A stretch of 64,000 nt of DNA from contig JBFXJP010000005.1 of assembly GCA_050174775.1 (NCBI GenBank), positions 146,135-210,134 of the forward strand, read 5' to 3'. The notes beneath the pieces are model-generated. The model was not told the DNA's origin and did no database searches. It saw only the letters and a list, made by a program, of their open reading frames with translations. Positions 46,778 through 64,000 of the stretch are shown piece by piece; the stretch's first letter is position 1, and each line of letters begins with the position of its first letter. The stretch comes from Phycisphaerales bacterium (GTDB lineage Bacteria > Planctomycetota > Phycisphaerae > Phycisphaerales > UBA1924). The position numbers and the translations under genes were made by a program.

Positions 46778-46866
46778 CCGGGGGCTGAGTAAGTGCTTGA
46801 AATATACCCCTCCCTGGCATCCGCTGCCACCAAACGAGCAAACTTTTTTTCCTGCGAAACAGTACC

Positions 46867-49136: not shown

Positions 49137-49634
49137 TCAGTCCTGCGAACCGTCCCGCGGTCCGCCGCCGAGCACCGGCGAGAAGTCGCCCTCGGCCGCA
49201 GCTCCGCCAACGCGTTCCTCGGCCACCGCGATCTCGTGCAGACGAACGCCCAGCGACACCATCGTTGCCGCCTCGATCAACACCGAGCAGCCCGCGAGAT
49301 ACACGCCGTCGAGCACCTCCGACACGTGCGTCGCCGCCACGAGCACGGAGCACAGCTCCACACCGTCCGCCACGCACACCAGCCGGCACGCGCGATGCAA
49401 CTCCACCGGGCCGGGGCACAGCAAACCAAAGCCGCCTCGGCTCACGTCGCGGATGTGCACGAATTGTCTGGGCCTGCCCGCTCCGAACTCAGTGTGCGGA
49501 TCGAAGATCAGCGAGCCCTGCCCACGCACGCGAAACCGCTCGTGAGCGCGTCGGTTCTTGCCCGACCCTTGGTCCGCCATCTCGTCCAGCGCCCTGAGCG
49601 CTTCAAGCAGGCGCGTGGCCCCATCTTGACTCAT
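49137..49634 (-). CDS. PilZ-domain (c-di-GMP-binding) protein
   Basis: RRAHERFR (RxxxR) and DVSRGGFGL (D/NxSxxG) motifs with correct spacing. Start at ATG 49634. Confidence 0.7.
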   Translation of the reverse strand: MSQDGATRLLEALRALDEMADQGSGKNRRAHERFRVRGQGSLIFDPHTEFGAGRPRQFVHIRDVSRGGFGLLCPGPVELHRACRLVCVADGVELCSVLVAATHVSEVLDGVYLAGCSVLIEAATMVSLGVRLHEIAVAEERVGGAAAEGDFSPVLGGGPRDGSQD

Positions 49635-49791
49635 GGTGTACGTCTCCCATCCGCGATCCTGGCGAATGTCAACCACTCTTGAATCGGCACACACCGCACG
49701 CCCTATCTACTTTGCTCGGCGTTCTCCCCCCGTTTCTCCACGAATTCCTCAGAACTGAACGCCTCGCCCGCCGCCGATAAAACGCCCGGTC

Positions 49792-50274
49792 TTACCGCCC
49801 CTCGCGCCACGTCGCTGATAATTCCCGACCGTCCAGCGTCGTGAAGCGAATCAACAAACTCGTCCGCCCCGTCCCCAACGCCTCCTCGCGCCCCCCCGTC
49901 AGCGTCGCCACGTACATCCGTGTCACACGATCAAACTGCGCCGCGCTCGCGTCGCCCGTGCGCAAGTCCTTATGCCACAACGCTTGAGGCTGCTGCGCCT
50001 CCGTCGCGCCCCCACCCCGCGCCGCAAACTCCACCTCCCCCAACTCCCGCACGCTCTCCCCATACCGATCCAGCAACTCGAAATGCGCATCGATCCGGAG
50101 TGAACCATCCGGTTCTTTCACTATCCGCGTCAGCGGGTGAATCACCAGACGTTCCGCGCGGAACGGACTCGCACTCACTTCTGCGCCGTGGGAACCACCG
50201 GCGCGAGAGTGCGCGCACCCCGCACACCACCCCACGCACCCCAGAACCAGCGCTCCTGCATACCACGCGCGCAT
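49792..50274 (-). CDS. Lipoprotein (160 aa), phage-cassette distal gene
   Basis: Start MRAWYAGALVLGCVGWCAGC (lipobox), 3 nt after the stop of the upstream ORF. The longer 370-aa ORF prefix is shadow-like. Confidence 0.55.
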   Translation of the reverse strand: MRAWYAGALVLGCVGWCAGCAHSRAGGSHGAEVSASPFRAERLVIHPLTRIVKEPDGSLRIDAHFELLDRYGESVRELGEVEFAARGGGATEAQQPQALWHKDLRTGDASAAQFDRVTRMYVATLTGGREEALGTGRTSLLIRFTTLDGRELSATWREGR

Positions 50275-50276
50275 AC

Positions 50277-50588
50277 TCACGCCCCGAGTGTACCTCGCGC
50301 GCCCTCCCGCTCGCTCCCCCTCGATGCCTCCACCCGACCCGCCATCAACCCCCCGATCAGCCCCGACAACGACCGCTGCCCCGCCTCCACCGCCGCCACG
50401 GCCCGCGTGTTCTCCGTCACCACCGACATCAACGCCTCCAACTGCACCTTCTGCTCCATCACCCGCGCGTGCGCCTCGCCAAGCTGCGTCTCCCGCTGCA
50501 CCGCCCCGCGACGCTCCATCAGCCACATCCACGCGATCAGCCCCGCCGCCCCGAACTGCGCCAGCTCCGTCCACATCGCGCTCTCCAT
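50277..50588 (-). CDS. Small TM plus coiled-coil protein (i-spanin- or Mu gp25-like architecture)
   Basis: N-terminal TM LAQFGAAGLIAWMWLM, then a helical Q/E/R/A segment. 103 aa. Confidence 0.5.
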   Translation of the reverse strand: MESAMWTELAQFGAAGLIAWMWLMERRGAVQRETQLGEAHARVMEQKVQLEALMSVVTENTRAVAAVEAGQRSLSGLIGGLMAGRVEASRGSEREGARGTLGA

Positions 50589-50606
50589 CCCGATGCCTCC
50601 TCCCGC

Positions 50607-50978
50607 TTATGTCAGGCGCGCATAATCCGCCCGGTACGCCAGGCTGATCGCCCTCCCCCGGTCCACGCGCTCCTCCGGACGGAACGTCAGCAGCGTCATG
50701 CTCGACCACGTCCGCCCGTTGTTGTCCACCAGCGCGCCCGTCAGCTGCGATTCGCAGCGCGCCCGGATCGTCTCCACCTGCGTCCACAGGTCCGCCTCGT
50801 TCGCCCCGATCAGGCGCCCGGCCTGCTCGATCTGCACCTGCAGGTTCGCCGAGAACACCACGATCAGGTCCTGCAGCACGTCCACGCGCAGCGGCGGAAC
50901 CCACAGCTTCCCCACCTTCTTCAGCGCAAACCGGTGCGGCCCCGAATTGAACAACGACTGTCCCGCGATCGTGCTCAT
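50607..50978 (-). CDS. Phage-cassette hypothetical protein (123 aa)
   Basis: Normal composition. ATGA overlap with the upstream ORF at 50975-50978. Confidence 0.5.
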   Translation of the reverse strand: MSTIAGQSLFNSGPHRFALKKVGKLWVPPLRVDVLQDLIVVFSANLQVQIEQAGRLIGANEADLWTQVETIRARCESQLTGALVDNNGRTWSSMTLLTFRPEERVDRGRAISLAYRADYARLT

Positions 50979-51376
50979 CCCGCCACCTCCACCACAGGGT
51001 CCGCCGCGCCGTCCGACGAGATCGCCACCATCACGATCCGCTGCGTCGCGCCCCCCTTCGCGCTCAGCTCGTGCTCCACACTCTCCACCACCACGCTCGC
51101 CACGAACTCACGCGACCCAGCGTCCGTCCCCCCCGATCGCTTCCACCGCAGCTCGCCCGCCTCCCCCGTCTTCGCGGGCGCCGCTTCATCCGTCGTCAGC
51201 TGCCGTTTCAACCGGATCATCACGCGCTGCTCCGGCGCATCCGCGAACACCACGTGCGGCCCCTTGTCGCTCCGCTCCAGCGCCAATCCCCCCGACAGCC
51301 GATCCACCGTCAGCGCCTCCACGTTGTCCAGCGCCTTCCCCAGCAGCGTCACGCTCCCAGGCCGCACCACCAGCAT
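50975..51376 (-). CDS. Phage-cassette hypothetical protein (133 aa)
   Basis: Normal composition. 12-nt gap to the upstream ORF. Confidence 0.5.
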   Translation of the reverse strand: MLVVRPGSVTLLGKALDNVEALTVDRLSGGLALERSDKGPHVVFADAPEQRVMIRLKRQLTTDEAAPAKTGEAGELRWKRSGGTDAGSREFVASVVVESVEHELSAKGGATQRIVMVAISSDGAADPVVEVAG

Positions 51377-51388
51377 CCCGCACCTCCC

Positions 51389-52036
51389 TCACGCCCGCGT
51401 GAGACGCGTCACGCTCATCCGCCTCGTCGCATCCGCCACCCCGTCCCCGTTCAGATCGATCAACGCCGCCACGCGCTGCCGCTCCTCACGGAACCGCTCC
51501 CGATACGCCTCCGCCTTCGCCCACGTCGCCGACGTCTCGCCCACCATCGCGCTGGCGCTCGACAGGATCGCGTGCATCGCGCCCAGCGCCTCCACCCGCG
51601 CGAGCGACCCCGGATTCACGATCGAGGTCTCCCCCACCTCCCCAAGCTGCCCCACGCTCCCCGGCTCGATCCCCAGCATCCGCAGCACCTGCCCGTGCGC
51701 CACGCTCAACTGCGCCCGGAACGTCATCACCACCAGCGTCGCGCCCGACATCGTCCCCGGCGGGATCGCAACCCCGCCCGCCTCCTCCCGCACGCGCGAC
51801 ACCGTCAGCTGCGTCGCGCTCAACCGCGCCACCACCTCCATCACCGCGCCGTTCACCAGCGCCACGTGCCCCGCCGTCACCCCCGCCGTCACGAAGTCGC
51901 TCCCCGCGCTCGTCAGCGTCGTCCCCGACACGCTCACCCCGCTCGCCTCCACCACGCGCTGCGCCGACCACCCCACCTCCCGAAACAACCCCGGCTCCAG
52001 CACCAGCAGATCCCTGTCCGTTGCGAACCCCATCAC
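51389..52036 (-). CDS. Phage-cassette hypothetical protein (215 aa), possible head-completion/adaptor protein
   Basis: Sits directly downstream of the capsid gene. Begins ..FATDRDLLVLEPGLF, reminiscent of head-tail connector N-termini (weak). Confidence 0.5.
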   Translation of the reverse strand: MMGFATDRDLLVLEPGLFREVGWSAQRVVEASGVSVSGTTLTSAGSDFVTAGVTAGHVALVNGAVMEVVARLSATQLTVSRVREEAGGVAIPPGTMSGATLVVMTFRAQLSVAHGQVLRMLGIEPGSVGQLGEVGETSIVNPGSLARVEALGAMHAILSSASAMVGETSATWAKAEAYRERFREERQRVAALIDLNGDGVADATRRMSVTRLTRA

Positions 52037-52155
52037 ACCCCCCTTCCTCGATCACCCTTCCGTCAATCCCGCCGGCAGCGCCGCGGCGCCGCCGACGAGC
52101 CACGCGCGCAAAAGCCCACACCCCCGCGCGCGTCCCCCCTCCCCTTCCCGCAATC

Positions 52156-53328
52156 TCAACTCGTCGCCAACCCGCTCAGCACGCCGTGCGCGTTCTCGTT
52201 GCGGAACTCCAGCGTGTACTCACCGATCACCTGCCCCGCCTCGCTGTCCCCCGTCACCGCGTGCGGCTTGTACTGGAAGCTCCGTCCCGCCAGCGGCAGC
52301 ACGTCCACGCGCGACGAATCCAACAAGAGCGCCATGTCCGGCGGCATCCACCGGCTCAGGATCACCCGCGCCACACCGAAATCGCTCTCGTACACGCTCA
52401 CCAGCTCGCGGAACTTCGTGTCGCCGGGTGTGTACCCCACGTTCCCCGTCACGAACGAGTTGATCTTCCGTTTCTGGAAACCACCCACCACGATCGTGTC
52501 GATCTGCCCCGCCGAACTCTCCCACACGCGCCGCAGCGCCGCGTTCAGCACGTCCTCCGTCAGCCCGTTGTTCCCGCCCCCCGACCCCTGCGGCATGCCC
52601 CCCGCGCCCGGCTGCATCTTGTTCGTCACGATCGACGACAGCACCCCCCGCATCGTGCGCCGCACCGTCGACGAGCCCTGCTGCGTCGTGCTCGGCGCCA
52701 CCCCGTTCAGCACGCAGTTCTCCAGATCGCGCAGCAGCTCCCGCACGCGCTCCTGCTTCTGATAGTCCAGCTCGTCCTGCACCCCGATCGACTTCACCGC
52801 AAGCTGCGACCCCGACACCTCCACCGACGCGGTCAGGATCTGCGTGAAATTCGTCCGCCGGACGCGGCTCGTGAACCGCGCCGCAGGCCGCGCATCTCCC
52901 TCCAGCGCCGCGTTCCCGATGATCAGCAGCTTCATGTCGTCCGCCAGCGCCGTCGCCGTCGTGCCCCCGTACCCGCGCTGCACCGTCAACGCGTTCCCGA
53001 TCACGCCCGTCACCAGCATCACCTCGCCCGACGTCCCGGGCCGCACCTGATCGCCGACCTGAAACCGCGAGCCGTTGTCCACCACGAAGCTCGTCGCCGC
53101 CGTCGCGTTCGGCGTGAAGCTCGACTGATTCACCTGGTCCGTGTTGGGCAACAGCGCATCCTCCACCCACTCGTGCACCGTGCTCCGCGCCACCCGCGCC
53201 GGATCACCCAGGTGATCCAGCAGCGGCGTCTCGAACGGCGACACGATCCCGATGATGTCGCTCACGTCCTCCGCAATCTCCGGCAGATCCGCCCCCGCAC
53301 CGTACGTCGCCTTCCCCGTAAACGGCAT
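52156..53328 (-). CDS. Phage major capsid protein (SU10/DUF5309-like, from memory)
   Basis: 390 aa. N-terminal DIIGIVSPFETPLLDHLGD...STVHEWVEDAL resembles the signature of that capsid family. Position after the portal and scaffold genes supports the call. Confidence 0.75.
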   Translation of the reverse strand: MPFTGKATYGAGADLPEIAEDVSDIIGIVSPFETPLLDHLGDPARVARSTVHEWVEDALLPNTDQVNQSSFTPNATAATSFVVDNGSRFQVGDQVRPGTSGEVMLVTGVIGNALTVQRGYGGTTATALADDMKLLIIGNAALEGDARPAARFTSRVRRTNFTQILTASVEVSGSQLAVKSIGVQDELDYQKQERVRELLRDLENCVLNGVAPSTTQQGSSTVRRTMRGVLSSIVTNKMQPGAGGMPQGSGGGNNGLTEDVLNAALRRVWESSAGQIDTIVVGGFQKRKINSFVTGNVGYTPGDTKFRELVSVYESDFGVARVILSRWMPPDMALLLDSSRVDVLPLAGRSFQYKPHAVTGDSEAGQVIGEYTLEFRNENAHGVLSGLATS

Positions 53329-53405
53329 TCCCGCATCCTCCCTTGTGTTGCTCTCGTCTCACCCACTCCGCGCGCACGCCACCCGCGACACGCGCTCCAC
53401 CCGAC

Positions 53406-53963
53406 TCACCGACCGCGCTTCAGACGCAGGTACCGCAGCAACGCGCCGCGATCACCCGTCACCGCGGCCTCCTCAGCCGCATCCTCCAATGCGCTGCTCC
53501 AACGCTCCCCCACTCGACCGCTCATCACCGACGCCCCCGCGCCGCTCACATGCCCATGCCCGAACAACCAACCCTTCGTCCGCTTCAAGTCCTCGATCGC
53601 CACCGCCACATCCGGCGCATCCATCTCCTCCACCGCGGCCTCCGTCAGCAGCCGCGCCGCCGCGATGTCCACCGCCCCGGCCTCGGCCAGACAACACTCG
53701 ATCTGCCGCTTCCGCTCGCTCGCGTCCAACGCCTCCCGCGCCGCCTCCAGATCCTCCAACGCGCCCGCCAACTTCCCCTTCAACTCTTCCACAAGCGCCT
53801 CCGCCTCGAGCGCCCGCTTCCGCCAGCGCTGCTCCTCCGTCACCACCTCCACATCACCAGCCCCCCCCTCACCACCCGGCCCCGGCCCTCCACCGCCACC
53901 CTCCAGCGGCGGACCCCCGCCCCCACCCTCACCATCTCCCAAACCACCCGCACCAGGCATCAC
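53406..53963 (-). CDS. Phage scaffolding-like protein
   Basis: 185 aa. Gly-rich N-terminus, then an acidic coiled coil (EEQRWRKRALEAEALVEELKGKLAGALEDLEAAREAL). Lies between the portal and capsid genes. Confidence 0.6.
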   Translation of the reverse strand: MMPGAGGLGDGEGGGGGPPLEGGGGGPGPGGEGGAGDVEVVTEEQRWRKRALEAEALVEELKGKLAGALEDLEAAREALDASERKRQIECCLAEAGAVDIAAARLLTEAAVEEMDAPDVAVAIEDLKRTKGWLFGHGHVSGAGASVMSGRVGERWSSALEDAAEEAAVTGDRGALLRYLRLKRGR

Positions 53964-53986
53964 TCGCTCCTTTCATTTCACAGCGC

Positions 53987-55403
53987 TCAGACCACGCCCT
54001 CATCCCCCACCGCATACCCCAGCTCCGCCAGCGCCACGCTCGCCGGCACGCCCAGCTCGCGCTTCAGCCGCGCTTCCTCCAGCCGCTCGCGCTCGCTCCG
54101 GGGCAGCGCGTCCGGCCACACCACCCGCACCCTCCGCTCCGCCTCGCTCGTCCGGAACACCCCCATCCGGTCCAGCGCCGTCAGCGCCATCCGGCTCATC
54201 TCCGCGATCCCGCGCCCGTACGTCACGCGCTTCCGCGCCGTCTTCGTCACCAGCCCCTGCAGCGTCACCCGCAACGCGTTCTCGCTCGACAGATTCCCCA
54301 CCTTCGACAGCACCCCCGTCACGATCGGCGTCACGCTCGACGCCTTGTCCATCGCCTCACGCACCTCCCGGATGTGCGCCTCCTCCGACGGCGACGCCAT
54401 GTCCCCCCCGATCGCGTCCACGCTCGCCTGCTCGTTGTCCGTCCACCACACCATCCCCGCCCCGATCGGCGCCGCGTCCACCGGCTCCAGCCCCTTCGCG
54501 AGATACATCTGGAAACTCTGCATCGTCACCCGATGCGCCCGGTCCGACAGCCTCGTGTTCAGCTCGTCCTGCAGCGGGATCAGCGGCTCCACCTCCCCGA
54601 ACCCCGAATACTCGAGCGGCTGCGCGATGTTCTGCACGTGCGCGATCGGAACCTCCCCGAGCCCGTGCTCCTCCTCCTCGCGCAGCCTCCCGTCCACGTA
54701 CAACTGCCGCGCCCGCGCCGAGAACACCTCCACCACCTCTTCCCGACCGCGCTGCGCGCTCGACCTCCACTTCATCCCGAACCGCGCCAGCGCGGCACGC
54801 CCGCGATCCGCCTCCCGCACCACCTCCGTCGTCTCGCGCTCAAACCGCACCACGTACGCGTCCAGCGCCCGGTAGTCCCGCGCGCTCACCAGCGGGATCC
54901 CGCGCGTCGGCTCCACCACCTCGATCCTAACCCCCGCGCCCCGCCGTCCGCAGCAGCAGGTCCACGTGCCCGTACACCGCGCCCAACAGCGCCATGTCCT
55001 GCAGCAGCGCGATCCCGCCGGACCCCTCCCACACCCCGTCCAGCACACGCGCGATCTCCTCGCGCCGACCCGCGTCCTCCACCTGCGCCGCCACCGTCAC
55101 CGGCCGCCCGAACATGAAGTCCACCATCGCATGCACCCGCCACGCGATGTCATTCTCGACCACGCGCTCCTTCTGATCATCCCGATCATCCTGCCCGCGC
55201 TTCCGACGCTTGAACCGGCTGGGCAGCCCCTCCTCCTGCGCCAAACGCCCGCGCCCCGAACCATTCTCCACCCGCGCATTGCGGTAATACGCCCACAACC
55301 GACGCATCCCCGGCACGCGCCGCCTCTCGTGCTCCTCGATCAGCACGCCCAGCAGCGCCGCGTCCAGACCCACCTCCGCAAACGGCCCCAGCGAATAAGC
55401 CAC
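53987..55403 (-). pseudogene. Phage portal protein interrupted by a +1 frameshift
   Basis: N-terminal 158-aa ORF (54927-55403) and C-terminal ORF (53987-55048) are in different frames. They join at a G5 run (C5 at 54931-35 on the plus strand; minus-strand GGGGGTTAG spans 54927-54935). Joined length is about 470 aa. Confidence 0.6.
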
Positions 55404-55579
55404 GCGCGAGCCCTCCTCTCACCCTCCCCGTCCCAGGCCCGCCCGCGTGCGCACCCACACCGCTCCTCCGCCCCACGCGCACGCCAAAACGCCCGCCGCG
55501 TCAGCGAAAAAAATCCTCAATCGCTCTGGAGCCCCCGCCCCCCGAAAGCCGCCCCGCGCGCACAACCCCGCGACGTCAC

Positions 55580-55861
55580 TCAGCCCGCCGCGGCGTCCGC
55601 CTCCTCCAACAGCTCCACTCGGCTGTACCGGTCCAGGTTCACCACCACCCGCTCCCCGTCATCCTTCTTCAGCTCCAGCCGGTCCAGCCACAGCTTGTCG
55701 TCCTTGCTGTGCGCAAACCACGACCCCGTCTTCTGCTGGCCGAAGCGCACCACGACCCCCTCGACGTCGATCGTCATCACGTCCTTGATCCGCGGGATCT
55801 GCTGCGTCACGCGCACCCGCTGACCAACCCGGTATTCATGAGGCTCAAGCGCTCGTCCCAT
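55580..55861 (-). CDS. Small hypothetical protein (93 aa)
   Basis: Beta-rich, well-balanced composition. Lies 36 nt downstream of the flgM-like gene and 176 nt upstream of the portal gene. Confidence 0.5.
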   Translation of the reverse strand: MGRALEPHEYRVGQRVRVTQQIPRIKDVMTIDVEGVVVRFGQQKTGSWFAHSKDDKLWLDRLELKKDDGERVVVNLDRYSRVELLEEADAAAG

Positions 55862-55897
55862 ACGCCCCGAGTCTACAGCCGCGCCCCCGGCCCCGCG

Positions 55898-56212
55898 TCA
55901 CGCCCGCAGATCGATCTCGCGCGTCAACGCGCTCACCGTGGCGTCCACCACCTCATGGCTCTCATAGAACCCCGAGGCGATCCGCTCCCGGGCCCGCGCA
56001 ATCACATCCTCACGCACGTCCGGCAGCTCCTTCAACTTCGCCAGAAACAACGCTCGATCCGACAACTCCACCCGGTCCTCATCACCCGCCCGACCCGCGC
56101 TCACCGAGGGCTGACTCGCGCCGATGCTCCGGTCCGCGCGCCCACCACTCCGAACCGATTCCACCCGGGAAAAACCAACCTCGTGCACGCCATTGATCGT
56201 AAAGTCTGACAT
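55898..56212 (-). CDS. flgM: Anti-sigma-28 factor FlgM-like protein
   Basis: 104 aa. C-terminal VELSDRALFLAKLKELPDVREDVIARARERIASGFYESHEVVD fits the FlgM pattern V.LS..A....LP.VR.dkV..lk.aI.sG.Y. Confidence 0.7.
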   Translation of the reverse strand: MSDFTINGVHEVGFSRVESVRSGGRADRSIGASQPSVSAGRAGDEDRVELSDRALFLAKLKELPDVREDVIARARERIASGFYESHEVVDATVSALTREIDLRA

Positions 56213-56526
56213 GAGCGTCCCGTCTGTTCCCTGCCGGCCCGCCCGAGACTCCGCTCGAACCGCGCCGTCTCGCGCCGCGCCACACCGGCCGCGACACGAA
56301 ATCCCCCGAATCCCGCCGCCGTGATCGGGCCGCTCCCGCGAACCCGCCTCAGGACACTCGCCCAAGGCCCACCTCACGACGACACCCACACTATCGTCCC
56401 CCAGACCGAGAACCCTGCAATCCTTCCCACCACGATTCCACATCACCTAAACCTAAGTCAAGCAACCACTTACATCGGATAACCGCCACCGGACTTCCAC
56501 CCGATTTTCTGCCAAGAGTCACTCCC

Positions 56527-57327
56527 ATGACCCCCAGATCTTGCCCAAATACACACCGAACAAATCTCCTCCTCTTTGCCGCCCTCTTTCTCCTCCTCCT
56601 CCCCCTCGCGCCCACCCACGCCCAGTCCCACAAGAAGGACTCCTCCTCAAACTCCTCCACCTCCACCCCGGAAGGCTGGACCATCGTCCTCGCTACCTAC
56701 GCCGGCCCCGATCACGCCGGGCTCGCGGCGGGCGCGGCCGAGCAGATCCGCACGCTCACTCCTCTGAAGGACGTCCAAACCCAGAACCGAGGCAAGGGCT
56801 CCGTGGTCGTGCTGGGCTCATACCCCTCCCCGGCGGACCCTCAGGCTCAAAAAGACCTCCTGGCCGTCCGCAACACACTCCTTGAAGAGCGCCCCCTCTT
56901 CCTGGCCGCGTTCCTCGCGCCACCGCGCACGCCTTCGGAAGCGGATCCGGGCTCCGCGGCTCCCTTCCCCCTCTCCACCGCCCGAGCCGAGTTCTCCCCC
57001 TACGCCCGCTACACACTTCAGATCGCCATCTACGAATCGCCCAACCTCGACGAGGCCAGAAAGGCCGCGGAAAAAGCCGCGCTCCAACTCCGACGCGACG
57101 GCGAGCCCGCCTTCTACTACCACGGCCCCACCGCCTCCCTGGTCACCCTCGGCGCCTTCACCGACGCCGACGCCGGCATCTCCAAGCCCATCGAGTCACC
57201 GCTCCTTGCCCAGCTTCGCAAACGACACCCCCACAATCTCTACAACGGCAACCAGCAGCTCCTCCAGAAGACCCCGGGCGCCAAGGACAAGACCCCTCAG
57301 CCCTCGTTCCTTGTCGAGATCCCCTGA
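56527..57327 (+). CDS. Secreted protein with two SPOR-like domains
   Basis: Signal peptide LLLFAALFLLLLPLAPTHA. GWTIVLATYAGPDHAG...SVVVLGSY and YTLQIAIYESPNLDEARKAAEK...LVTLGAF resemble SPOR repeats. Confidence 0.55.
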   Translation: MTPRSCPNTHRTNLLLFAALFLLLLPLAPTHAQSHKKDSSSNSSTSTPEGWTIVLATYAGPDHAGLAAGAAEQIRTLTPLKDVQTQNRGKGSVVVLGSYPSPADPQAQKDLLAVRNTLLEERPLFLAAFLAPPRTPSEADPGSAAPFPLSTARAEFSPYARYTLQIAIYESPNLDEARKAAEKAALQLRRDGEPAFYYHGPTASLVTLGAFTDADAGISKPIESPLLAQLRKRHPHNLYNGNQQLLQKTPGAKDKTPQPSFLVEIP

Positions 57328-57789
57328 CTCGGCGCCACCGTCAGGTTTTCCCCCATCGTCCGGAAACGCACTTTCCGGCCCGACACGCGCGATTTCTCTT
57401 GCAGAACCTTCGCGCTCAGGTATGCTCAAAAAGTCTTGCCACGCGCCTTTGCACAGGGACGTGGCAGTAGCGAGTAGAGAGAGCGCTGCGCACAGCGCGA
57501 CCGGGCTACGTCTTGCGTGCATCCCTCCGGTGATGCACGAAGCGTCCCGCGCATCGCGCGTCCTGCGCACCCCCCCTACACGCGGCGCTGCCACGCTCAA
57601 CGGCATTCGTTCCGACGCGCCGCACAACGCGCCGGAACTCCAACGTGGCAGAGCCGCCCGGCCCGTTAACTCGGTTCGGGAGGCTTCAACGTCAGGCGAC
57701 CTGGGGCGTTGAGGCCCACCACACGGGCCAGGTGAGAGGGACGCGTTGTGAACCCCAGCGCACCGCACACTGCCGCCTGACGAAATTCA

Positions 57790-59826: not shown

Positions 59827-60666
59827 TCAGAACATCGGGCGCTTCGGTCGCTGCTCGGGGCCCACGGAGCGGATGACCCGGACCGCGACGTAGAGCCCGG
59901 CCACTTCTTCGCGGTGCACGACGCGCGGGCCGTAGCGGGAGTTGAGGGGCTGGAGTCTGATCCGCACGGCCTCGTCGCCTTCGCGCTCGAAATACACGCG
60001 TTTGAAGGTGGTTTCGGCGTCGCGTTCGAGCCGGACGAAGCAGTCGTCGCCGTCGACGGCGCTGAGTTCGGGGCTGAAGACGACGATGTCGCCCTCTGCG
60101 TACTGGGGGGACATGGAGTCGCCGACGACTCGGGCGCCGAAGGCGTCGGGGTCGGAGACGTCGGGGACGCGCACGTGATCGTCCGCAACTCGTGCGGGAT
60201 AGCCAAGATCGGTGAATTCGCGCGGGTAGCCGGCGGCCACGGAGTTGATGACGGGGACGTGGATGGGGAGGCCGACGAGCTCGACGTTGGTGCGCGGCGC
60301 GGCGCCTGAGAGGCGGTCGACCAGGGACTGGAGTTCGCCGGACTGCCAGACGTCGTCAAGTGATTGGGAGCGAACGAGTTCGGCGAGCCGGCGGCCGGCG
60401 TTGCTCGCCTCGGCCATCTCGCGCATCTCGGCCCGGACGGGCTCGGGCATCGACTCGAAACTAGCCATTTTCACGAGGATTCCGGGCTCCAGACGGAGGG
60501 CTTCCTCGAGGCGTGCGAGCAGCGAGGGGGAGGGGGCGCCGGTGGTTTTGCCGTTCTCGATCTGGGAGAGGTAGGACTTGTGACACCGAACCGTGTCGGC
60601 GAGCGCCTGCAGGGTCATTTCCCGCGCTGTTCTGTGGTTCCTCAAGAATTGGCCGAGACGCTTCAT
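59827..60666 (-). CDS. CI/LexA-like autocleavable repressor (HTH_XRE plus S24 peptidase)
   Basis: HTH is LQALADTVRCHKSYLSQIENGK. Cleavage-site motif is NSVAAGYP (Ala-Gly). Ser is in VVGDSMSP and Lys in TFKRVY. ATG preceded by CACAGGAGC. Confidence 0.85.
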   Translation of the reverse strand: MKRLGQFLRNHRTAREMTLQALADTVRCHKSYLSQIENGKTTGAPSPSLLARLEEALRLEPGILVKMASFESMPEPVRAEMREMAEASNAGRRLAELVRSQSLDDVWQSGELQSLVDRLSGAAPRTNVELVGLPIHVPVINSVAAGYPREFTDLGYPARVADDHVRVPDVSDPDAFGARVVGDSMSPQYAEGDIVVFSPELSAVDGDDCFVRLERDAETTFKRVYFEREGDEAVRIRLQPLNSRYGPRVVHREEVAGLYVAVRVIRSVGPEQRPKRPMF

Positions 60667-60785: not shown

Positions 60786-61274
60786 ATGAGACGGGAGGGC
60801 GCCATGGTCGGAGGACAGGCGATCGGGATGCGGGCGGGTCGGAGCGCGGTGCGGGAGCTGGATCGGATCGATCCGGATCGGGTGGCGGACCTTCGTCGGA
60901 GGCATGGTCGGGAGGAGACGGAGCGGGTGTTGGCGTTGGCGGAGCACGTGGGTGCGGAGGAGCGGGCGCTGCTGCGCGCGGTGTTCGAGGGAGGGGTGTC
61001 GGTGGGGGAGTTGGCGCGGGTGAGGGGGTGTCCGGTGCGGACGTTGCGGCGCGAGGTGCGCGGTCTGGTGAGGAGGGTGACGGACCCGCGGTTCGTGTTC
61101 GTGCTGTCGAGGCGTGAGGGGTGGGGGGCTGGTCGGAGGAAGGTGGCGAGCGCGTGCGTGTTGCAGGGGTTGAGTCTGCGGGAGGCCGCGCGGGAGGCGG
61201 GGCTGACGCTGCACACGGTGCGTCGGCACATGGGGGCGATCGAGGCGTTGTTTGATGCGGAGAGCGCGGCGTGA
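60786..61274 (+). CDS. Regulator with two sigma-70 region-4/LuxR-like HTH units
   Basis: VSVGELARVRGCPVRTLRREVRGLVRRV and LSLREAAREAGLTLHTVRRHMGAIEAL. Start codon uncertain. Confidence 0.55.
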   Translation: MRREGAMVGGQAIGMRAGRSAVRELDRIDPDRVADLRRRHGREETERVLALAEHVGAEERALLRAVFEGGVSVGELARVRGCPVRTLRREVRGLVRRVTDPRFVFVLSRREGWGAGRRKVASACVLQGLSLREAAREAGLTLHTVRRHMGAIEALFDAESAA

Positions 61275-62593
61275 GTGAGCGGGTGTTGCGAGCGTGCGCG
61301 ATGTTCGGGCTGCCGCCTGAGGAGGCGCGCGAGGCGGCGAGGGAAGCGGTGCGCGCGGGGAGGGAGATCTCGGCGCGAGGGGGGACGATCACGCTGCTGA
61401 CGGGGGCGAGCGGCTCGGGGAAGACGAGCGCGCTGCGGAGCGCGGTGGAGCAGTGGCGCGCGGAGGGGCGGATGGTGATCGAGGCGCGGCCGGCGTCGAG
61501 GCGCGCGTGGCGGCGCGCGTGCGTCGAACTGGTGGGGGAAGGGGAGGGAGAGGAGGGGGTGGCGCGCGCGATGCGGAGGCTGTCGCAGGTGGGGCTGGGC
61601 GAGGCGCGGTGCTTCGTGCGGAGCGCGCGGGAGTTGTCGGAGGGGCAGCGGGAACGGCTATGGCTTGGGATGGCGCTGGAGCGCGCGGCGCGGACGGCGG
61701 GGAGCGTGATCGTGGTGGATGAGTTTCTCGCGCGGTTGGATCGGGTGACCGCGCGGGTGACGGCGCGGTGCTTCGCGCGGGCGGTGCGTCAGGAGGGGGT
61801 GAGCGCGGTGGTGGCCACGGCGCACGATGACCTGGAGGAGGCGCTGGGGGCGGACGAGGTGGTGCGGTTCGGGTTGGATGGAGGGGTGCGTGTGACGCGG
61901 GGGGCGGGGGAGAGCGCGGCGCTGGAGGTGGAGTACGGGGAGGCGGAGTGGGAGGAGTGCGCCGGGTTGTTGCGGTTTCACTATCGCGGCGCGCGGCCGG
62001 CGATGGTGGCGCGGGTGATGGCGGCGCGCGTGGAGGGAGAGGTGGTGGGGGCGTTGATCGTGGCGATGCCGACGTTGAACGGGGTGTGGAGGCGGCTGGC
62101 GTGGGGTGATCGGTATTCGAGCGGGGATCGGCGGGAGTGCGCGCGGCGGCTGAACGCGGAGGTGCGGCGGATCTCGCGGGTGGTGGTTGATCCGCGGTGG
62201 CGGGGCGTGGGGATCGCGAAGGGGCTGGTGCGCGCGTATCTGGATGCGCCGCTGACGGCGCGGACGGAGGCGGTGGCGGCGATGGGGGCGGTGTGCCCGT
62301 TCTTCGAGCGCGCGGGGATGCGTGCGCATCGGGCGCCGGCGGGGCATCGGGATGCGCGGCTGCTGGACGTGTTTGCGCATCTCGGGGTGCGTGAGTGGGA
62401 GACGTGTGACGGCGCGCGTGTGCTGCGGGCGGCGCGGGAGCGCGGGCTGGAGGCGTGGCTGGAGTGGGAGTTGGAGCGGTGGGTGGGCGACGGGAGGGGG
62501 AGGGAGACGTGTCGAGGCTTGGGCGTGGAGGGGCTGGCGCGGGAGGCGTGTCGGCGGGTGTCGGCGGAGCAGGTGGCGTACACGGATGGATGA
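61271..62593 (+). CDS. ABC-type ATPase fused to GNAT acetyltransferase
   Basis: Walker A GASGSGKTS, signature-like LSEGQRERL, Walker B VIVVDEF and ATAHD, then GNAT motif A RVVVDPRWRGVGIAKGLV. The GTG start overlaps the upstream stop (GTGA). Confidence 0.7.
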   Translation: MSERVLRACAMFGLPPEEAREAAREAVRAGREISARGGTITLLTGASGSGKTSALRSAVEQWRAEGRMVIEARPASRRAWRRACVELVGEGEGEEGVARAMRRLSQVGLGEARCFVRSARELSEGQRERLWLGMALERAARTAGSVIVVDEFLARLDRVTARVTARCFARAVRQEGVSAVVATAHDDLEEALGADEVVRFGLDGGVRVTRGAGESAALEVEYGEAEWEECAGLLRFHYRGARPAMVARVMAARVEGEVVGALIVAMPTLNGVWRRLAWGDRYSSGDRRECARRLNAEVRRISRVVVDPRWRGVGIAKGLVRAYLDAPLTARTEAVAAMGAVCPFFERAGMRAHRAPAGHRDARLLDVFAHLGVREWETCDGARVLRAARERGLEAWLEWELERWVGDGRGRETCRGLGVEGLAREACRRVSAEQVAYTDG

Positions 62594-62794
62594 ATGGAAA
62601 GGAGGCGCGAGGTGCGGCGGGGAACACAGGGCGGGGAATTGTTGTCGTCGTTGACGGTGTTTGTGACGGCGGCGGAGCGGCGGGAGGCGTTGGAGGTGAT
62701 GCGTCGTTTCGATCGGGAGCGTGGGAGGGCGTTCATGGGGATGGCGCGTGCGGCGGCGACGGTGCGTGCGGCGCGGAAGGGGGGGAGGGCGTGA
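62594..62794 (+). CDS. Small basic protein (66 aa)
   Basis: ATG directly abuts the upstream stop. Its own stop overlaps the next ATG (TGATG). No domain recognised. Confidence 0.4.
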   Translation: MERRREVRRGTQGGELLSSLTVFVTAAERREALEVMRRFDRERGRAFMGMARAAATVRAARKGGRA

Positions 62795-63243
62795 TGGGCG
62801 CGAAGCGTGGCGTGGTGGTGGATGCGGACGTGCGGAGCGGTCGGGTGTTGCGGGACGTGTATTCGCTGGTGCGCGAGGCGCCGCAGATCGCGGAGCGTCA
62901 CGGGATGACGTTGCGGGAGCTGGCGTCGTGGGCGAGTTCGGAGGAGGAGCGGAGGACGGTGGAGGGGTTGTGTCGATTTGAGGATGCGCGTGCGGAGTTG
63001 TTGTTGCGGCGTGCGCGGGTGAGCGCGGCGCGGCGGTTGTTGCGGCTTTCGCTGGAGGCGTCTTCGGAGGAGACGAGGCGGAAGGCGTGCGTGGACCTGT
63101 TGCGGATCGGGTCGTCGTCGGGGTTGCGGCGTGTGCGTGAGGAGGAGGAGGAGGGGGAGAGCGGGATGGAGGTGTTGCAGGACGGGCCGGAGGCCGAGGT
63201 GATTCGGGAGACGTTGGAGCGTCGGGGCGCGCAGAGCGCGTGA
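62794..63243 (+). CDS. Candidate small terminase subunit (149 aa)
   Basis: Call rests on position immediately upstream of the TerL-like gene and on a helical N-terminus with an HTH-like segment (IAERHGMTLRELASW). An acidic tail is present. Assignment is positional only. Confidence 0.4.
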   Translation: MGAKRGVVVDADVRSGRVLRDVYSLVREAPQIAERHGMTLRELASWASSEEERRTVEGLCRFEDARAELLLRRARVSAARRLLRLSLEASSEETRRKACVDLLRIGSSSGLRRVREEEEEGESGMEVLQDGPEAEVIRETLERRGAQSA

Positions 63244-63258: not shown

Positions 63259-64000
63259 ATGGCGGGAGGGAGGGTGGTGTCGAGGCGCGCGTTGTTGGGC
63301 GTGCGGCCGAGGACGGAGAACCAGTTGTGGGAGTGGCTGCGTCTGGTGCTGGACGTGGAGGCGTCGCGGCGCGCGTTGGTGGAGGGGAGTGATGCGCCGT
63401 TTTCGTACGTGGCGCACGCGTTCTTCGAGGAGCGTGGCGAGCGGGACGTGGTGGTGTGGGCGAATCGGGGCGGGGGGAAGACGTTCTATGGCGCGGTGGC
63501 GACGGTGTTGGACCTGGTGTTCAAGCCGGGGATCGAGGTGCGCGTGCTTGCGGGGAGCGTGGAGCAGGGGCAGCGGATGCACGGGCACGTGCGGAGGTTG
63601 TTTGAGCGGGAGCGGCTGCGCGGGTTGGTGGACGGGAAGCCGACGGGGAGGAGTTTGCGGCTGACGAACGGGAGTGTGGTGGAGGTGAGCGCGGCTTCGG
63701 AGTCGTCGGTGCGGGGGGCGAGGCCGGTGAAGATGCGGTGTGACGAGGTGGAGTTGTTTGATCCGGAGATCTGGGCGGCGGCGCAGCTGGCGCCGAGGAG
63801 CAGGAGGTGTGGTGGTGTGTGGGCGAAGGCGGGTGTTGAGGCGTTGAGCACGATGCATCGGCCGTGGGGGTTGATGCACGAGTTGACGGGGGACCTGGAG
63901 CGGAAGCAGTTTCGGTGGGGGGTGGTGGATGTGTTGTCGAGGTGCGCGTCAGCGCGGGAGTGTTCGTCGTGCGCGTTGTGGGAGGAGTGTGGGGGGAGAG
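63259..64000 (+). CDS. Large terminase subunit, N-terminal ATPase part (partial, runs off the window)
   Basis: I translated this frame by hand; it has no stop through 64000. Walker A VVWANRGGGKTF, Walker B KMRCDEVELF and a following STMH coupling-like motif. Not in the ORF track because it lacks a stop. Confidence 0.75.
   Translation, partial: MAGGRVVSRRALLGVRPRTENQLWEWLRLVLDVEASRRALVEGSDAPFSYVAHAFFEERGERDVVVWANRGGGKTFYGAVATVLDLVFKPGIEVRVLAGSVEQGQRMHGHVRRLFERERLRGLVDGKPTGRSLRLTNGSVVEVSAASESSVRGARPVKMRCDEVELFDPEIWAAAQLAPRSRRCGGVWAKAGVEALSTMHRPWGLMHELTGDLERKQFRWGVVDVLSRCASARECSSCALWEECGGR

What the first reader, a model, noticed from the sequence alone, without database searches (positions are those of the whole stretch)
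49792..55403. Tail-less phage head cassette between a PilZ gene and a flgM-like gene
Seen: a minus-strand chain with short gaps. It comprises a portal (split), an acidic coiled-coil scaffold-like ORF, a 390-aa capsid-like ORF, three small ORFs (215, 133 and 123 aa, one with an ATGA overlap), a TM/coiled-coil ORF and a lipoprotein. The capsid N-terminus (SPFETPLLDHLGD..HEWVEDAL) matches the SU10/DUF5309 capsid family as I recall it. The cassette contains no terminase, prohead protease, tail, baseplate, fibre, integrase or lysin. By eye its GC content looks like the rest of the window. Inference: it is either a decaying prophage remnant, a head module belonging to the packaging operon about 8 kb away, or a retained capsid-forming locus (GTA- or PICI-like, or a compartment).
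Basis: partly seen in the sequence, partly recalled or inferred. Interest (0 to 1): 0.65.

Follow-up and report, generated by a model that had tools for sequence, protein, structure and literature searches.

The report
Conserved tail-less phage head locus
This is one strain's copy, with a freshly broken portal gene, of a phage-derived capsid-and-DNA-packaging gene set without tail genes that Phycisphaerae bacteria have kept under selection across hundreds of species, so it is probably a domesticated particle-making system, not a dying prophage.

Summary
On the minus strand at 49792-55403 lie a portal (split by a frameshift), a scaffold-like ORF, an SU10-family capsid gene (Pfam 1.7e-84), three small ORFs, a TM/coiled-coil ORF and a lipoprotein.

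It is not a decaying remnant. The same genes in the same order occur in at least 80 species-level Phycisphaerae genomes (at least 421 related loci). Portal, scaffold and capsid are intact in 57/57 fully covered loci. dN/dS is 0.05-0.4 for most genes. Cassette GC tracks host GC (r=0.93). Host-gene neighbours are shared, and no integrase or tail gene is adjacent.

A second conserved module lies at 59.8-64.7 kb: an S24 repressor, then HTH, ABC-ATPase/GNAT, TerS-like and TerL genes. It sits on the same contigs as the capsid gene in five other genomes, 10-56 kb away. One distant lineage has both modules contiguous, also without a tail.

This strain carries a +1 G frameshift in the portal. A 99.4%-identical sister strain and 74 other loci have no such frame break.

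Best reading: a domesticated, GTA-like or fixed cf-PICI-like system that makes DNA-filled heads. Tail genes elsewhere in the genome are not excluded, and no experimental data exist.

The parts
49792..50274 (-). Lipoprotein (160 aa from MRAWYAG...; lipobox ...WCAG|C). It is the last gene of the head cassette and starts 2 nt after the stop of the TM gene.
   Evidence: Signal peptide and lipobox were read from the sequence. Homologues of 159-200 aa sit in the same position in 32-39 of 57 fully covered species loci. dN/dS is 0.10-0.46 in inter-species pairs. A lipoprotein also follows the TM gene in the distant locus L149. There are no Pfam or PHROG hits.
50277..50588 (-). 103-aa protein with an N-terminal TM helix followed by a coiled coil. 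It may be an i-spanin-like or envelope-anchoring partner of the lipoprotein.
   Evidence: There is a weak PHROG hit to Rz-like spanin, E=0.039. It is conserved at 42-60% identity in 47-51 of 57 loci and in L149 (hhalign 99.2%). dN/dS is 0.12-0.40.
50607..50978 (-). p123, a conserved 123-aa virion-module protein of unknown fold. It is presumed to be a neck or head-completion protein.
   Evidence: Present in 55 of 57 loci. dN/dS is 0.08-0.43. A homologue follows the p215 homologue on IMG/VR contig L100 (hhalign 94.6%, E=6.7e-8). No Pfam, PHROG or PDB-sequence hit was found. The single-sequence AF2 model was unusable.
50975..51376 (-). p133, a conserved 133-aa protein predicted to be all-beta, of unknown function. 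Its stop overlaps the p123 start (ATGA).
   Evidence: Present in 50 of 57 loci. dN/dS is 0.23-0.67. No hit in Pfam, PHROGs or PDB sequences. It is absent from L100 and L149.
51389..52036 (-). p215, a conserved virion-associated protein. It has a helical bundle, an inserted six-stranded beta-barrel and a C-terminal Ca-loop (DxDGDG). It is tentatively a podovirus-type head-to-tail adaptor.
   Evidence: AF2 with a 46-sequence alignment gave pLDDT 93.6 and pTM 0.88. Foldseek against BFVD matches the barrel to anchor domains of phage tail-fibre, tail and virion proteins (probability about 1.0, E 1e-3 to 1e-2), and gives one 'head to tail adaptor' hit at E=0.016. There is no significant PDB match. 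An EF-hand-like loop was seen. Present in 56 of 57 loci and in L100 and L149.
52156..53328 (-). Major capsid protein, SU10/DUF5309 family (HK97 fold), 390 aa.
   Evidence: Pfam SU10_MCP 1.7e-84. phrog_1328 major head protein 8e-79. PDB capsid hits 9ny2, 9in6 and 7z45. 4550 homologues were found; the top 120 are 67-90% identical and all but one are 388-392 aa. Six synonymous and no non-synonymous differences against the sister strain.
53406..53963 (-). Scaffolding-like acidic coiled-coil protein (185 aa).
   Evidence: Weak Pfam Phage_scaffold hit, 1.8e-3, below cut-off. It lies between portal and capsid, as in phage Lietuvens and SU10. Present in 57 of 57 loci.
53987..55403 (-). Portal gene, interrupted in this strain by a +1 G in a G-run (54931-54935) that gives a TAG at 54927-54929. 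The intact form is 471 aa.
   Evidence: Pfam SPP1_portal. Alignment with the intact sister-strain genes in L004 and L007 shows GGGG changed to GGGGG, plus an adjacent C-to-A change that is synonymous in the true frame. The N and C parts are in one frame in 74 of 74 other loci, and 73 of 74 ORFs are at least 450 aa.
55580..55861 (-). p93, a highly conserved small protein (52-75% identity in tblastn matches) that usually lies upstream of the portal. Whether it belongs to the system is uncertain.
   Evidence: Found within 10 kb of the capsid gene in 47 of 85 loci, usually 0.4-2.5 kb upstream of the portal. It lies next to p161/DUF6677 instead in L009 and L066. No family or PDB hit.
59827..60666 (-). 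CI/LexA-like repressor (HTH_XRE plus S24 peptidase), divergent from the packaging operon.
   Evidence: Pfam Peptidase_S24 2.7e-17 and HTH_31 8.7e-12. The VAAG cleavage motif, the GDSM serine and the FKRV lysine were read from the sequence. It is conserved next to the packaging module in L095, L096 and L097 and in 20 metagenome loci.
60786..61274 (+). HTH protein with a sigma-70 region-4-like motif (156-162 aa). It is the first gene of the packaging operon and a candidate activator.
   Evidence: Pfam Sigma70_r4_2 8e-7. phrog_11138 4e-6. Conserved in 24 TerL loci.
61271..62593 (+). ABC/SMC-type P-loop ATPase with a GNAT-like C-terminal half (440 aa).
   Evidence: Pfam AAA_22, ABC_tran and GNAT families, weak. 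phrog_11143 4e-19. PDB ABC nucleotide-binding domains. Only generic PADLOC ATPase hits. It accompanies TerL in 47 of 80 metagenome loci and is split into two genes in L095.
62794..63243 (+). 149-aa protein directly upstream of TerL. It is assigned as a small-terminase candidate by position only.
   Evidence: Gene call in L001. Homologues lie in the same position in L096 and L097 and in 10 metagenome loci. An HTH-bearing 141-aa equivalent is present in L149. No family hit.
63259..64000 (+). Large terminase subunit, N-terminal part. The full gene is 485 aa and runs 716 bases past the window end.
   Evidence: PHROG terminase large subunit 5e-6 on the window part. The full length from L001 gives Terminase_6C at 24.0 bits against a cut-off of 22.6. 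Walker A GGGKT, Walker B CDE and the nuclease aspartates are invariant in 28 homologues. 2829 homologues were found.

Best explanation
**What it is.** The cassette is the head module of a two-module, phage-derived particle system. The system is fixed in the chromosomes of Phycisphaerae and is maintained by selection. It is a domesticated element of the GTA kind, or equivalently a fixed, immobile counterpart of a capsid-forming satellite.

**Proposed working (inferred, not shown).**
1. DNA damage or another RecA-activating signal makes the LexA-like S24 repressor (59827-60666) cleave itself.
2. This derepresses the divergent operon encoding the HTH/sigma-r4-like protein, the ABC-ATPase/GNAT protein, the TerS-like protein and TerL.
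3. The HTH protein, or loss of the repressor, turns on the head operon.
4. Portal, scaffold and SU10-type capsid protein build procapsids, and the terminase fills them with DNA.
5. p215 (adaptor-like), and p133 and p123 where present, close or finish the portal vertex.
6. The TM/coiled-coil protein and the lipoprotein act at the cell envelope, in release or in anchoring.

The product would be a DNA-filled head without a tail of its own. Such a head could acquire a tail made elsewhere, either from a co-resident phage (as cf-PICI heads do) or from an unlinked host locus. Alternatively it could act without one.

**This strain.** The portal carries a recent +1 frameshift. This copy is therefore probably switched off or newly inactivated, although every other gene is intact.

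**Shown versus inferred.** Shown: gene identities for portal, capsid, TerL and repressor; order-wide conservation; purifying selection; conserved terminase catalytic motifs; absence of adjacent tail genes; co-occurrence of the two modules. Inferred: induction route, particle formation, DNA content, and the roles of p215, p133, p123, the TM protein and the lipoprotein.
For: **Gene identity.**

**Distribution.** Of 4550 capsid homologues, the top 120 are 67-90% identical, all but one are 388-392 aa, and they lie on chromosomal contigs of up to 1.36 Mb. At least 421 related loci occur in species-representative genomes. The best 80 are almost all labelled Phycisphaerae or Planctomycetota (two only 'uncultured bacterium'), including complete chromosomes.

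**Synteny.** The order portal-scaffold-capsid-p215-p133-p123-TM-lipoprotein recurs. Counts in 57 fully covered loci are 57, 57, 57, 56, 50, 55, 47-51 and 32-39. The only other recurrent neighbours are host genes, and no further phage-like family was found.

**Shared chromosomal site.** The outer flanks UbiX-p178 and flgM-p266 are the same in L015 (UbiX-p178 also in L014 and L025), with a local inversion in this genome.

**Composition.** Cassette GC tracks flank GC over 54 species, across a range of 0.54-0.75, with r=0.93.

**Selection.** 39.5 synonymous against 11.5 non-synonymous differences from the sister strain give dN/dS of about 0.10. Pooled over the cassette genes, dN/dS is 0.12-0.35 between species, and most single-gene values are 0.05-0.4 (up to 0.67 for p133).

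**Portal.** No frame break between the N and C parts in 74 of 74 other loci.

**Packaging module.** It is conserved. It lies on the same contigs as the capsid gene, matched by five contig lengths. It is nearly contiguous with the head module in L122 and fully contiguous in L149, which is also tail-less.

**TerL.** Walker A, Walker B and nuclease residues are invariant.

**Literature.** Tail-less hexagonal particles have been seen in a cultured Phycisphaerae strain (PMC10945688). This is compatible with the model but has not been linked to this locus.
Against: - There is no experimental evidence that particles are made or that DNA is packaged.
- No tail, holin or endolysin was found, so delivery and release are unexplained.
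- Five of the nine cassette genes have no assigned function. p133 and p123 could not be modelled.
- Tail genes elsewhere in the genome could not be searched. Only 71 kb of this genome was examined, plus 10 kb on each side of the capsid or TerL genes in other genomes.
- The copy in the window has a broken portal.
- Vertical inheritance is inferred from synteny, composition and breadth. It was not tested by comparing the gene tree with a species tree.
- IMG/VR lists three related contigs as viral, so exchange with real viruses occurs.
Confidence: 0.6

Rival explanations
1. It is a complete GTA whose tail and lysis genes lie at one or more unlinked loci, as some RcGTA components do. The head cassette would then look tail-less only when viewed locally.
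For: The head and packaging modules are themselves unlinked, 10-56 kb apart with host genes between them. Dispersal of further modules is therefore plausible. p215 has an adaptor-like fold, and its barrel domain is shared with tail-fibre anchor domains. That suggests an interface for something distal to the portal.
Against: No tail-like gene was found in 71 kb of this genome. None was found within 10 kb of the capsid gene in 80 species or of TerL in more than 80 loci. The distant lineage L149 has all its components contiguous and still has no tail.
Confidence: 0.2
2. It is a mobile phage satellite of the capsid-forming PICI kind that integrates at a preferred site. On this view it is widespread because it spreads horizontally, not because it is inherited.
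For: The gene content resembles a cf-PICI packaging module plus a regulation module, with no tail module (10.1101/2025.02.11.637232). Three related contigs are listed in IMG/VR. Synonymous divergence between the two strains is concentrated in the cassette, which could reflect recombinational exchange.
Against: - No integrase, recombinase or replication module lies in or beside either module.
- The modules are separated by host genes at distances that vary between genomes.
- Sequence divergence is spread across species, and GC follows the host (r=0.93).
- The locus is inverted in place between the same host flanks.
- There is one copy per genome among the 80 best loci.
Confidence: 0.07
3. It is a decaying prophage remnant with no function, retained by chance.
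For: This strain's portal is frameshifted. The block is inverted in this genome, which leaves only 36 bp between flgM and p93. There are no tail or lysis genes.
Against: - Seven genes are present with the expected length in 47-57 of 57 fully covered species loci, and the divergent lipoprotein is detected in 32-39.
- dN/dS is about 0.1-0.35 for the cassette as a whole.
- The portal has no frame break in 74 of 74 other loci and is intact in a sister strain that is 99.4% identical.
- TerL catalytic residues are invariant.
Confidence: 0.04
4. It is a domesticated head-and-terminase system whose selected role is not gene transfer. One possibility is anti-phage interference: competing for or soaking up an invader's tails, or cutting and packaging DNA during infection. 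Another is a DNA-holding compartment.
For: - The system is controlled by an S24 repressor of the kind that responds to SOS or phage signals.
- A conserved ABC-type ATPase/GNAT protein of unknown role is unusual for packaging operons.
- cf-PICIs reduce helper phage yield.
- The envelope TM/lipoprotein pair is always attached to the cassette.
Against: No match to known defence systems beyond generic ATPase similarity. A portal together with a catalytically conserved terminase points to genuine DNA packaging. Nothing distinguishes this reading from gene transfer at sequence level.
Confidence: 0.1

Closest known systems
Gene transfer agents (RcGTA-type domesticated head-tail particles of Alphaproteobacteria)
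   Same: - Phage-derived structural and terminase genes are fixed in the chromosome.
- The genes are conserved across a large clade and under purifying selection.
- There are no integration or replication genes.
- Components are dispersed over more than one locus.
- A dedicated transcription factor with a sigma-region-4-like domain is present. GafA is the analogue in RcGTA (PMC9638019, listed); that it resembles GafA is my own recollection.
   Different: - No tail, head-spike or lysis genes are found with either module.
- A scaffold protein is used instead of a prohead protease.
- The capsid belongs to the SU10/DUF5309 family.
- Control appears to be by a CI/LexA-like autocleaving repressor.
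- An ABC-ATPase/GNAT gene sits in the packaging operon.
- The host phylum is Planctomycetota.
- Packaging of random host DNA has not been tested.
[quoted passage not shown]
   Same: It encodes its own capsid, portal, TerS-like and TerL genes plus neck-type small proteins and a regulator, and has no tail module (definition in 10.1101/2025.02.11.637232). This is the closest model for how a tail-less head could still deliver DNA.
   Different: - No integrase, replication module, prohead protease or HNH gene.
- It is not a contiguous 10-18 kb island.
- Modules are split by host genes.
- Divergence and GC follow the host, which indicates inheritance and not mobility.
- An envelope TM/lipoprotein pair is attached.
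Phage SU10 (Kuravirus) and other phages with SU10-family capsids
   Same: The capsid family is the same (Pfam PF17236; PDB 7z45 is hit by the capsid profile). The order TerL, portal, scaffold, capsid is also the same.
   Different: - The closest isolated-phage capsid is only 31% identical.
- SU10 gp10 and gp11 show no similarity to p133 or p215.
- These phages carry full tail, lysis and replication modules.
IMG/VR contig IMGVR_UViG_3300031673_016560 (L100)
   Same: It has portal, scaffold, capsid (58% identity), a p215 homologue and a p123 homologue in the same order.
   Different: These genes are followed by nine more same-strand ORFs, including Ig-like and ConA-lectin-like proteins that could be tail or fibre parts. 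It lacks p133 and the TM/lipoprotein pair. Its GC is 51%. Whether it is a true virus is unverified.

Membership tests
SU10/DUF5309 major capsid protein (Pfam PF17236, HK97 fold) | Scores above the Pfam gathering threshold over the full domain | tested here: met
   284.3 bits against a cut-off of 24.1, covering residues 13-387.
SU10/DUF5309 major capsid protein (Pfam PF17236, HK97 fold) | Sequence relationship to a capsid protein with a solved structure | tested here: met
   The profile hits 9ny2 (2.4e-34), 9in6 (4.3e-15) and the SU10 capsid 7z45 (3.7e-12).
SPP1-type portal (Pfam PF05133) | Scores above the gathering threshold as one full-length protein | tested here: inconclusive
   The C part scores 65.3 bits, above the 25.5 cut-off. 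The N part scores 20.2 bits, below it. The gene is frameshifted here but is an intact 471 aa in L004 and 452-560 aa in 73 other loci.
Large terminase subunit | ATPase Walker A/B motifs and an RNaseH-like nuclease domain | tested here: met
   Terminase_6C scores 24.0 bits against a cut-off of 22.6 on the full-length protein. GGGKT, CDE and the nuclease aspartates are invariant in 28 homologues.
Gene transfer agent | Phage-derived particle genes fixed in the host chromosome and conserved across a clade | tested here: met
   At least 421 loci, with the best 80 almost all labelled Phycisphaerae or Planctomycetota. They share host flanks, and cassette GC tracks host GC with r=0.93. No comparison of gene tree with species tree was made.
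Gene transfer agent | Purifying selection on the structural genes | tested here: met
   dN/dS is about 0.10 within the species and 0.12-0.35 pooled over the cassette genes between species.
Gene transfer agent | No genes for its own replication, integration or excision | tested here: met
   None in the window or the L001 flank. No recurrent family of that kind lies near the capsid gene in 82 loci.
Gene transfer agent | A complete delivery particle (head plus tail) | tested here: not met
   No tail genes are linked to either module in any genome examined. Unlinked loci were not searchable.
Gene transfer agent | Packages random host DNA in pieces too small to carry its own genes, and transfers it to recipients | not testable with these tools
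   This needs particle purification, sequencing of protected DNA and transfer assays.
Capsid-forming PICI | A contiguous 10-18 kb island with an integrase or recombinase and a replication module | tested here: not met
   No integrase or replication genes are present. The modules are 10-56 kb apart with host genes between them.
Capsid-forming PICI | [quoted passage not shown] | tested here: inconclusive
   Capsid, portal and TerL are present. Adaptor-like p215 and a TerS-like gene are tentative. No protease or HNH was found.
Capsid-forming PICI | No complete tail module | tested here: met
Encapsulin nanocompartment | An HK97-fold shell without portal or terminase, with a cargo enzyme | tested here: not met
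   Portal and terminase are present and conserved. No cargo-type gene is in the cassette.
Two-component spanin (Rz/Rz1) | An inner-membrane protein with an N-terminal TM helix and periplasmic coiled coil, next to a small outer-membrane lipoprotein, within a holin-endolysin cassette | tested here: inconclusive
   The TM-plus-coiled-coil architecture and the adjacent lipobox protein are visible in the sequence. The PHROG Rz-like hit is only E=0.039. The lipoprotein is 160 aa, larger than typical o-spanins. No holin or endolysin was identified.

The most novel reading that the evidence does not exclude
Phycisphaerae maintain an order-wide, chromosomally fixed organelle-like system that fills tail-less HK97-type heads with DNA. 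Those heads would work without a tail of their own. They might capture tails from whatever phages are around, which would be a host-owned version of tail piracy. Or they might be released and taken up by a tail-independent route that involves the conserved TM/lipoprotein envelope pair. This would be a new class of domesticated virus-derived particle, distinct from both GTAs and phage satellites. It may also be the source of the tail-less hexagonal particles reported from a cultured Phycisphaerae strain.
Probability: 0.3. Interest if true: 0.9.

Novelty: new variant of a known kind. Interest (0 to 1): 0.77.

Why it matters
- Known domesticated particle systems are few. GTAs and tailocins are the main examples, and the GTAs I know of carry tails (my own knowledge). 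Tail-less DNA-filled heads are so far known only from mobile satellites (cf-PICIs).
- A head-plus-terminase system without tail genes, kept under selection across hundreds of species of a Planctomycetota class, would extend domestication of viruses to a new phylum and a new architecture.
- It raises a concrete question that can be tested: what use is a DNA-filled head without a tail?
- It also matters in practice. Virus-prediction tools will call these loci prophages or viral contigs (three related contigs are in IMG/VR), which inflates lysogeny and virus-host estimates for Phycisphaerae.
- Cultured members (Phycisphaera, Poriferisphaera, Tepidisphaera) make experiments feasible, though whether those strains carry the locus was not checked here.
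- My searches of the paper library found no description of this locus.

Tried and rejected
- **Concatenated homology query.** I joined p133, the C-terminal part of p215 and p123 into one query to get homologues of all three from the last search. Only the p215 family came back.
- **Structure prediction for p123 and p133.** Single-sequence AF2 of p123 gave pLDDT 44.7, so it was not used for fold search. p133 was never modelled.
- **Family and structure searches.** PHROG scans of every member of the p215, p133 and p123 alignments gave no consistent family. Profile searches against PDB sequences gave nothing except an EF-hand-like loop in p215.
- **hhalign comparisons.** The three alignments were compared with the post-capsid proteins of SU10, phage Lietuvens and L100. 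Only the L100 homologues matched.
- **tblastn against isolated phages.** No match for p215 or for the 614-aa L100 protein.
- **PADLOC.** Only generic ATPase hits.
- **Inversion junctions.** No inverted repeats were found there.
- **Promoters and terminators.** The consensus scan found nothing above chance.
- **dN/dS method.** NG86 dN/dS on all species pairs was dropped as a general measure. Synonymous sites saturate at low apparent pS in genomes with about 90% GC3, so only selected closer pairs and the within-species pair are reported.
- **GC-skew domains.** I first suspected that they marked foreign DNA. I rejected this because the skew is strand-specific, ignores gene orientation and also covers ordinary host genes.
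- **flgM.** I considered it as part of the operon and rejected that. It lies on the opposite strand, on the other side of the cassette, in other genomes.

Full report
**1. What is at the coordinates**

The window has about 69% GC. It is 100% identical to contig JBFWNI010000001.1 (2.38 Mb) of assembly GCA_050251115.1.

Profile searches confirm the two key assignments.
- The 390-aa ORF is an SU10/DUF5309-family major capsid protein. Pfam gives 1.7e-84 and PHROG major head protein gives 8e-79. A profile of the family hits solved capsid structures, including SU10 itself.
- The two overlapping ORFs at 53987-55403 are the two halves of an SPP1-type portal.

The 185-aa acidic ORF between portal and capsid has only a weak scaffold hit. 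It does sit where scaffolds sit in related phages.

The 215-, 133- and 123-aa ORFs, the TM/coiled-coil ORF and the lipoprotein have no family assignment. The lipoprotein's real start is at 50274, which gives 160 aa.

The cassette GC (0.700) matches its flanks (0.687). The flanking genes are a weak PilZ match and a FlgM-like gene.

**2. The packaging module**

A second phage-derived block lies 4.4 kb to the right of the portal gene (55403 to 59827). A CI/LexA-like repressor (HTH plus S24 peptidase, 59827-60666, minus strand) faces a plus-strand operon. The repressor has a VAAG cleavage motif and a Ser/Lys pair visible in the sequence. The operon encodes:
- an HTH protein with a sigma-70 region-4-like motif;
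- a 440-aa ABC-type ATPase with a GNAT-like C-terminal half;
- a 60-66-aa ORF;
- a 149-aa protein in the small-terminase position;
- a 485-aa large terminase that runs off the window end.

The matching contig shows that TerL is followed by small membrane proteins, including a DUF6677 protein, and then ordinary host genes. No tail genes follow. The rest of the window is host genes. The 22-42 kb stretch was checked with Pfam, and 1-22 kb was read by eye.

**3. The cassette is a conserved feature of Phycisphaerae**

*Breadth.* The capsid protein has 4550 homologues at E<=1e-10. The best 120 are 67-90% identical, and all but one are 388-392 aa. Those that carry a source name are labelled Phycisphaerae or Planctomycetota, and they lie on contigs of up to 1.36 Mb. 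A scan of one genome per species found at least 421 related loci. The best 80 are almost all labelled Phycisphaerae or Planctomycetota (two are labelled only 'uncultured bacterium'; capsid identity 62-75%) and include complete chromosomes.

*Gene order.* In these loci the order portal, scaffold, capsid, p215, p133, p123, TM protein, lipoprotein recurs. Among 57 loci with enough flanking sequence, the counts are:

| Gene | Loci with the gene (of 57) |
|---|---|
| Portal | 57 |
| Scaffold | 57 |
| Capsid | 57 |
| p215 | 56 |
| p123 | 55 |
| p133 | 50 |
| TM protein | 47-51 |
| Lipoprotein (divergent) | 32-39 |

TerL is never within 10 kb in these 57 loci.

*Neighbours.* Clustering all ORFs from 82 loci found no other recurrent phage-like family. 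The next most common neighbours are host enzymes such as a phosphoglucomutase and amidohydrolases, each present in 27 loci. No recurrent integrase or tail family appears among them.

*Site.* L015 shares this genome's outer flanks (UbiX-p178 on one side, flgM-p266 on the other), and L014 and L025 share the UbiX-p178 side. In this genome the block from p93 to PilZ is inverted between those flanks.

*Composition.* Across 54 species, cassette GC follows flank GC over a range of 0.54-0.75, with r=0.93.

*Selection.* Pooled over the cassette genes, dN/dS is 0.12-0.35 in inter-species pairs. Most single-gene values are 0.05-0.4, and p133 reaches 0.67 in the more saturated pairs. These are upper bounds, because synonymous sites are partly saturated. 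Against a sister strain that is 99.4% identical, the cassette has 39.5 synonymous and 11.5 non-synonymous differences. That gives a dN/dS of about 0.10.

**4. The packaging module is co-conserved with the head module**

TerL has 2829 homologues. The close ones are 49-60% identical and lie on long chromosomal contigs. Five of those contigs have the same lengths as contigs that carry the capsid gene.

Look-ups show the same repressor, HTH, ATPase, (TerS-like) and TerL arrangement in three other genomes, 17-56 kb from the capsid gene. A metagenome scan adds about 20 more loci with this arrangement.

Two loci are especially informative.
- In L122 the two modules are almost contiguous on one strand.
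- In L149, a more distant lineage (capsid 51% and TerL 43% identical), the order is fully contiguous: HTH, ATPase, TerS-like, TerL, portal, scaffold, capsid, p215, TM protein, lipoprotein. Host genes lie on both sides. There is no p133, no p123 and again no tail.

Walker A, Walker B and the nuclease aspartates of TerL are invariant across 28 homologues. The terminase has therefore been kept catalytically competent.

**5. The unassigned proteins**

*p215.* It was modelled with high confidence (pLDDT 93.6). The model shows a helical bundle with an inserted six-stranded beta-barrel and a C-terminal calcium-type loop. Nothing in the PDB matches significantly. Among predicted viral structures, the barrel matches the virion-anchoring domains of many tail-fibre and tail proteins. 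The whole protein weakly matches one podovirus head-to-tail adaptor. I read p215 as an adaptor-like protein of the portal vertex, and this is tentative.

*p133 and p123.* They could not be modelled and match nothing in Pfam, PHROGs or PDB sequences.

*L100.* This IMG/VR contig carries portal, scaffold, capsid (58% identity), a p215 homologue and a p123 homologue. Nine further ORFs follow on the same strand, some with Ig-like and lectin-like domains. It may represent the tailed viral relatives of the cassette, but this is not verified.

*Isolated phages.* The closest capsid from an isolated phage is only 31% identical.

**6. This particular copy**

The portal is broken by an extra G in a G-run (54931-54935). 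An adjacent C-to-A change is synonymous in the true frame and creates a TAG in the shifted frame.

The sister strain (L004) and L007 lack the insertion, and L004 has an intact 471-aa portal. In 74 other loci the two halves are in one frame. The lesion is therefore real, recent and confined to this lineage. It appears in several assemblies that may come from one study.

Everything else in the cassette is intact. Programmed +1 slippage on GGGGG is conceivable, but nothing supports it.

**7. How it most likely works**

The shown facts fit a domesticated particle system in which the S24 repressor controls a packaging operon and, directly or through the HTH protein, the head operon. Procapsids would be filled by the terminase and the portal vertex finished by p215, with p133 and p123 where present. 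The invariable TM/lipoprotein pair would act at the envelope.

The product would be a DNA-filled head without its own tail. cf-PICIs show that such heads can be released and later joined to free phage tails (10.1101/2025.02.11.637232).

All steps after gene identity are inference.

The rivals are scored in the report sections: a tail cluster elsewhere in the genome, a mobile satellite, a dead remnant, and a non-transfer role.

**8. Comparison with known systems**

The locus behaves like a GTA in its evolutionary signature. It fails the linked-tail criterion, and its DNA content is untested.

It resembles a cf-PICI in gene content. It fails the integrase, replication, contiguity and mobility criteria.

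It is not an encapsulin, because portal and terminase are present.

I found no description of this locus in the paper library.

One paper reports tail-less hexagonal particles of about 30 nm released without lysis from a cultured Phycisphaerae strain. The authors attribute them to an extrachromosomal phage (PMC10945688). Whether those particles come from this locus is an open and testable question.

Noticed in passing
whole window; switches near 5, 12, 21.5, 39-45 and 59.5 kb: There are domains of very strong GC skew, up to +0.47 and -0.38 overall and up to 0.75 at third codon positions. The skew belongs to the DNA strand and not to gene orientation, and it covers ordinary host genes as well as the phage-derived modules. 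Several sign changes within 64 kb are not what a single replication origin and terminus would give.
   Followed up: partly
window 49137-55403 compared with 45946-48479, against locus L004: Between two strains that are 99.4% identical, synonymous differences pile up in PilZ plus the cassette (dS about 0.028). UbiX, UbiA and MarR next door have about one synonymous difference in roughly 600 sites. This suggests allelic import by recombination at this locus.
   Followed up: partly
window 49137-55861, compared with L014, L015 and L025: The block from p93 through the cassette to PilZ is inverted in this genome relative to other species, between the same outer flanks (UbiX-p178 and flgM-p266). Only 12 bp and 36 bp are left at the two junctions. 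No inverted repeats were found there.
   Followed up: partly
TerL (window 63259-64000 and L001 11989-13446): The TerL family has four invariant cysteines (C229, C235, C238, C244) between the ATPase and nuclease domains. This looks like a zinc-binding insertion.
   Followed up: no
window 61271-62593; L095 8585-9957: The ABC-type ATPase and the GNAT-like domain are fused in this genome. In OZ245804.1 they are two separate genes of 270 and 186 aa, and the 149-aa TerS-like gene is missing there. PHROGs holds phage families for both the ATPase (phrog_11143) and the HTH protein (phrog_11138).
   Followed up: partly
L001 13443-15109; L009 14621-16949; L095 11587-13310: A small set of genes travels with either the packaging module or the head module in different genomes: an 85-aa TM protein, a DUF6677 TM protein, an acidic ORF of about 80 aa, a 136-186-aa protein ('p161'; 161 aa in L001) and sometimes p93. 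They may be further parts of the system, possibly membrane or lysis functions.
   Followed up: partly
loci L150-L184 (metagenome contigs, GC 0.45-0.54): Lower-GC organisms carry an ATPase plus TerL pair (TerL 35-40% identical) without adjacent portal or capsid genes. The split architecture may therefore extend beyond the high-GC Phycisphaerae.
   Followed up: no
L098 7023-8183; L099 5970-7118 (IMG/VR contigs): Two contigs classed as viral carry a capsid gene 56-62% identical to the cassette's. They have no detectable homologue of its portal or p215, which hints at capsid-gene exchange between these elements and real viruses.
   Followed up: no
window 10670-11620: A plus-strand ORF carries a DPPF motif typical of N4/N6 DNA methyltransferases. 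It sits among NADH dehydrogenase and PEP-CTERM-type genes. It was read by eye only.
   Followed up: no
literature, PMC10945688: The cultured Phycisphaerae strain ZRK32 releases tail-less hexagonal particles of about 30 nm without lysis. The 21.9 kb 'phage' genome assigned to them is absent from the host chromosome and carries Pseudomonas-like metabolic genes. The particles might instead come from the conserved head locus.
   Followed up: no
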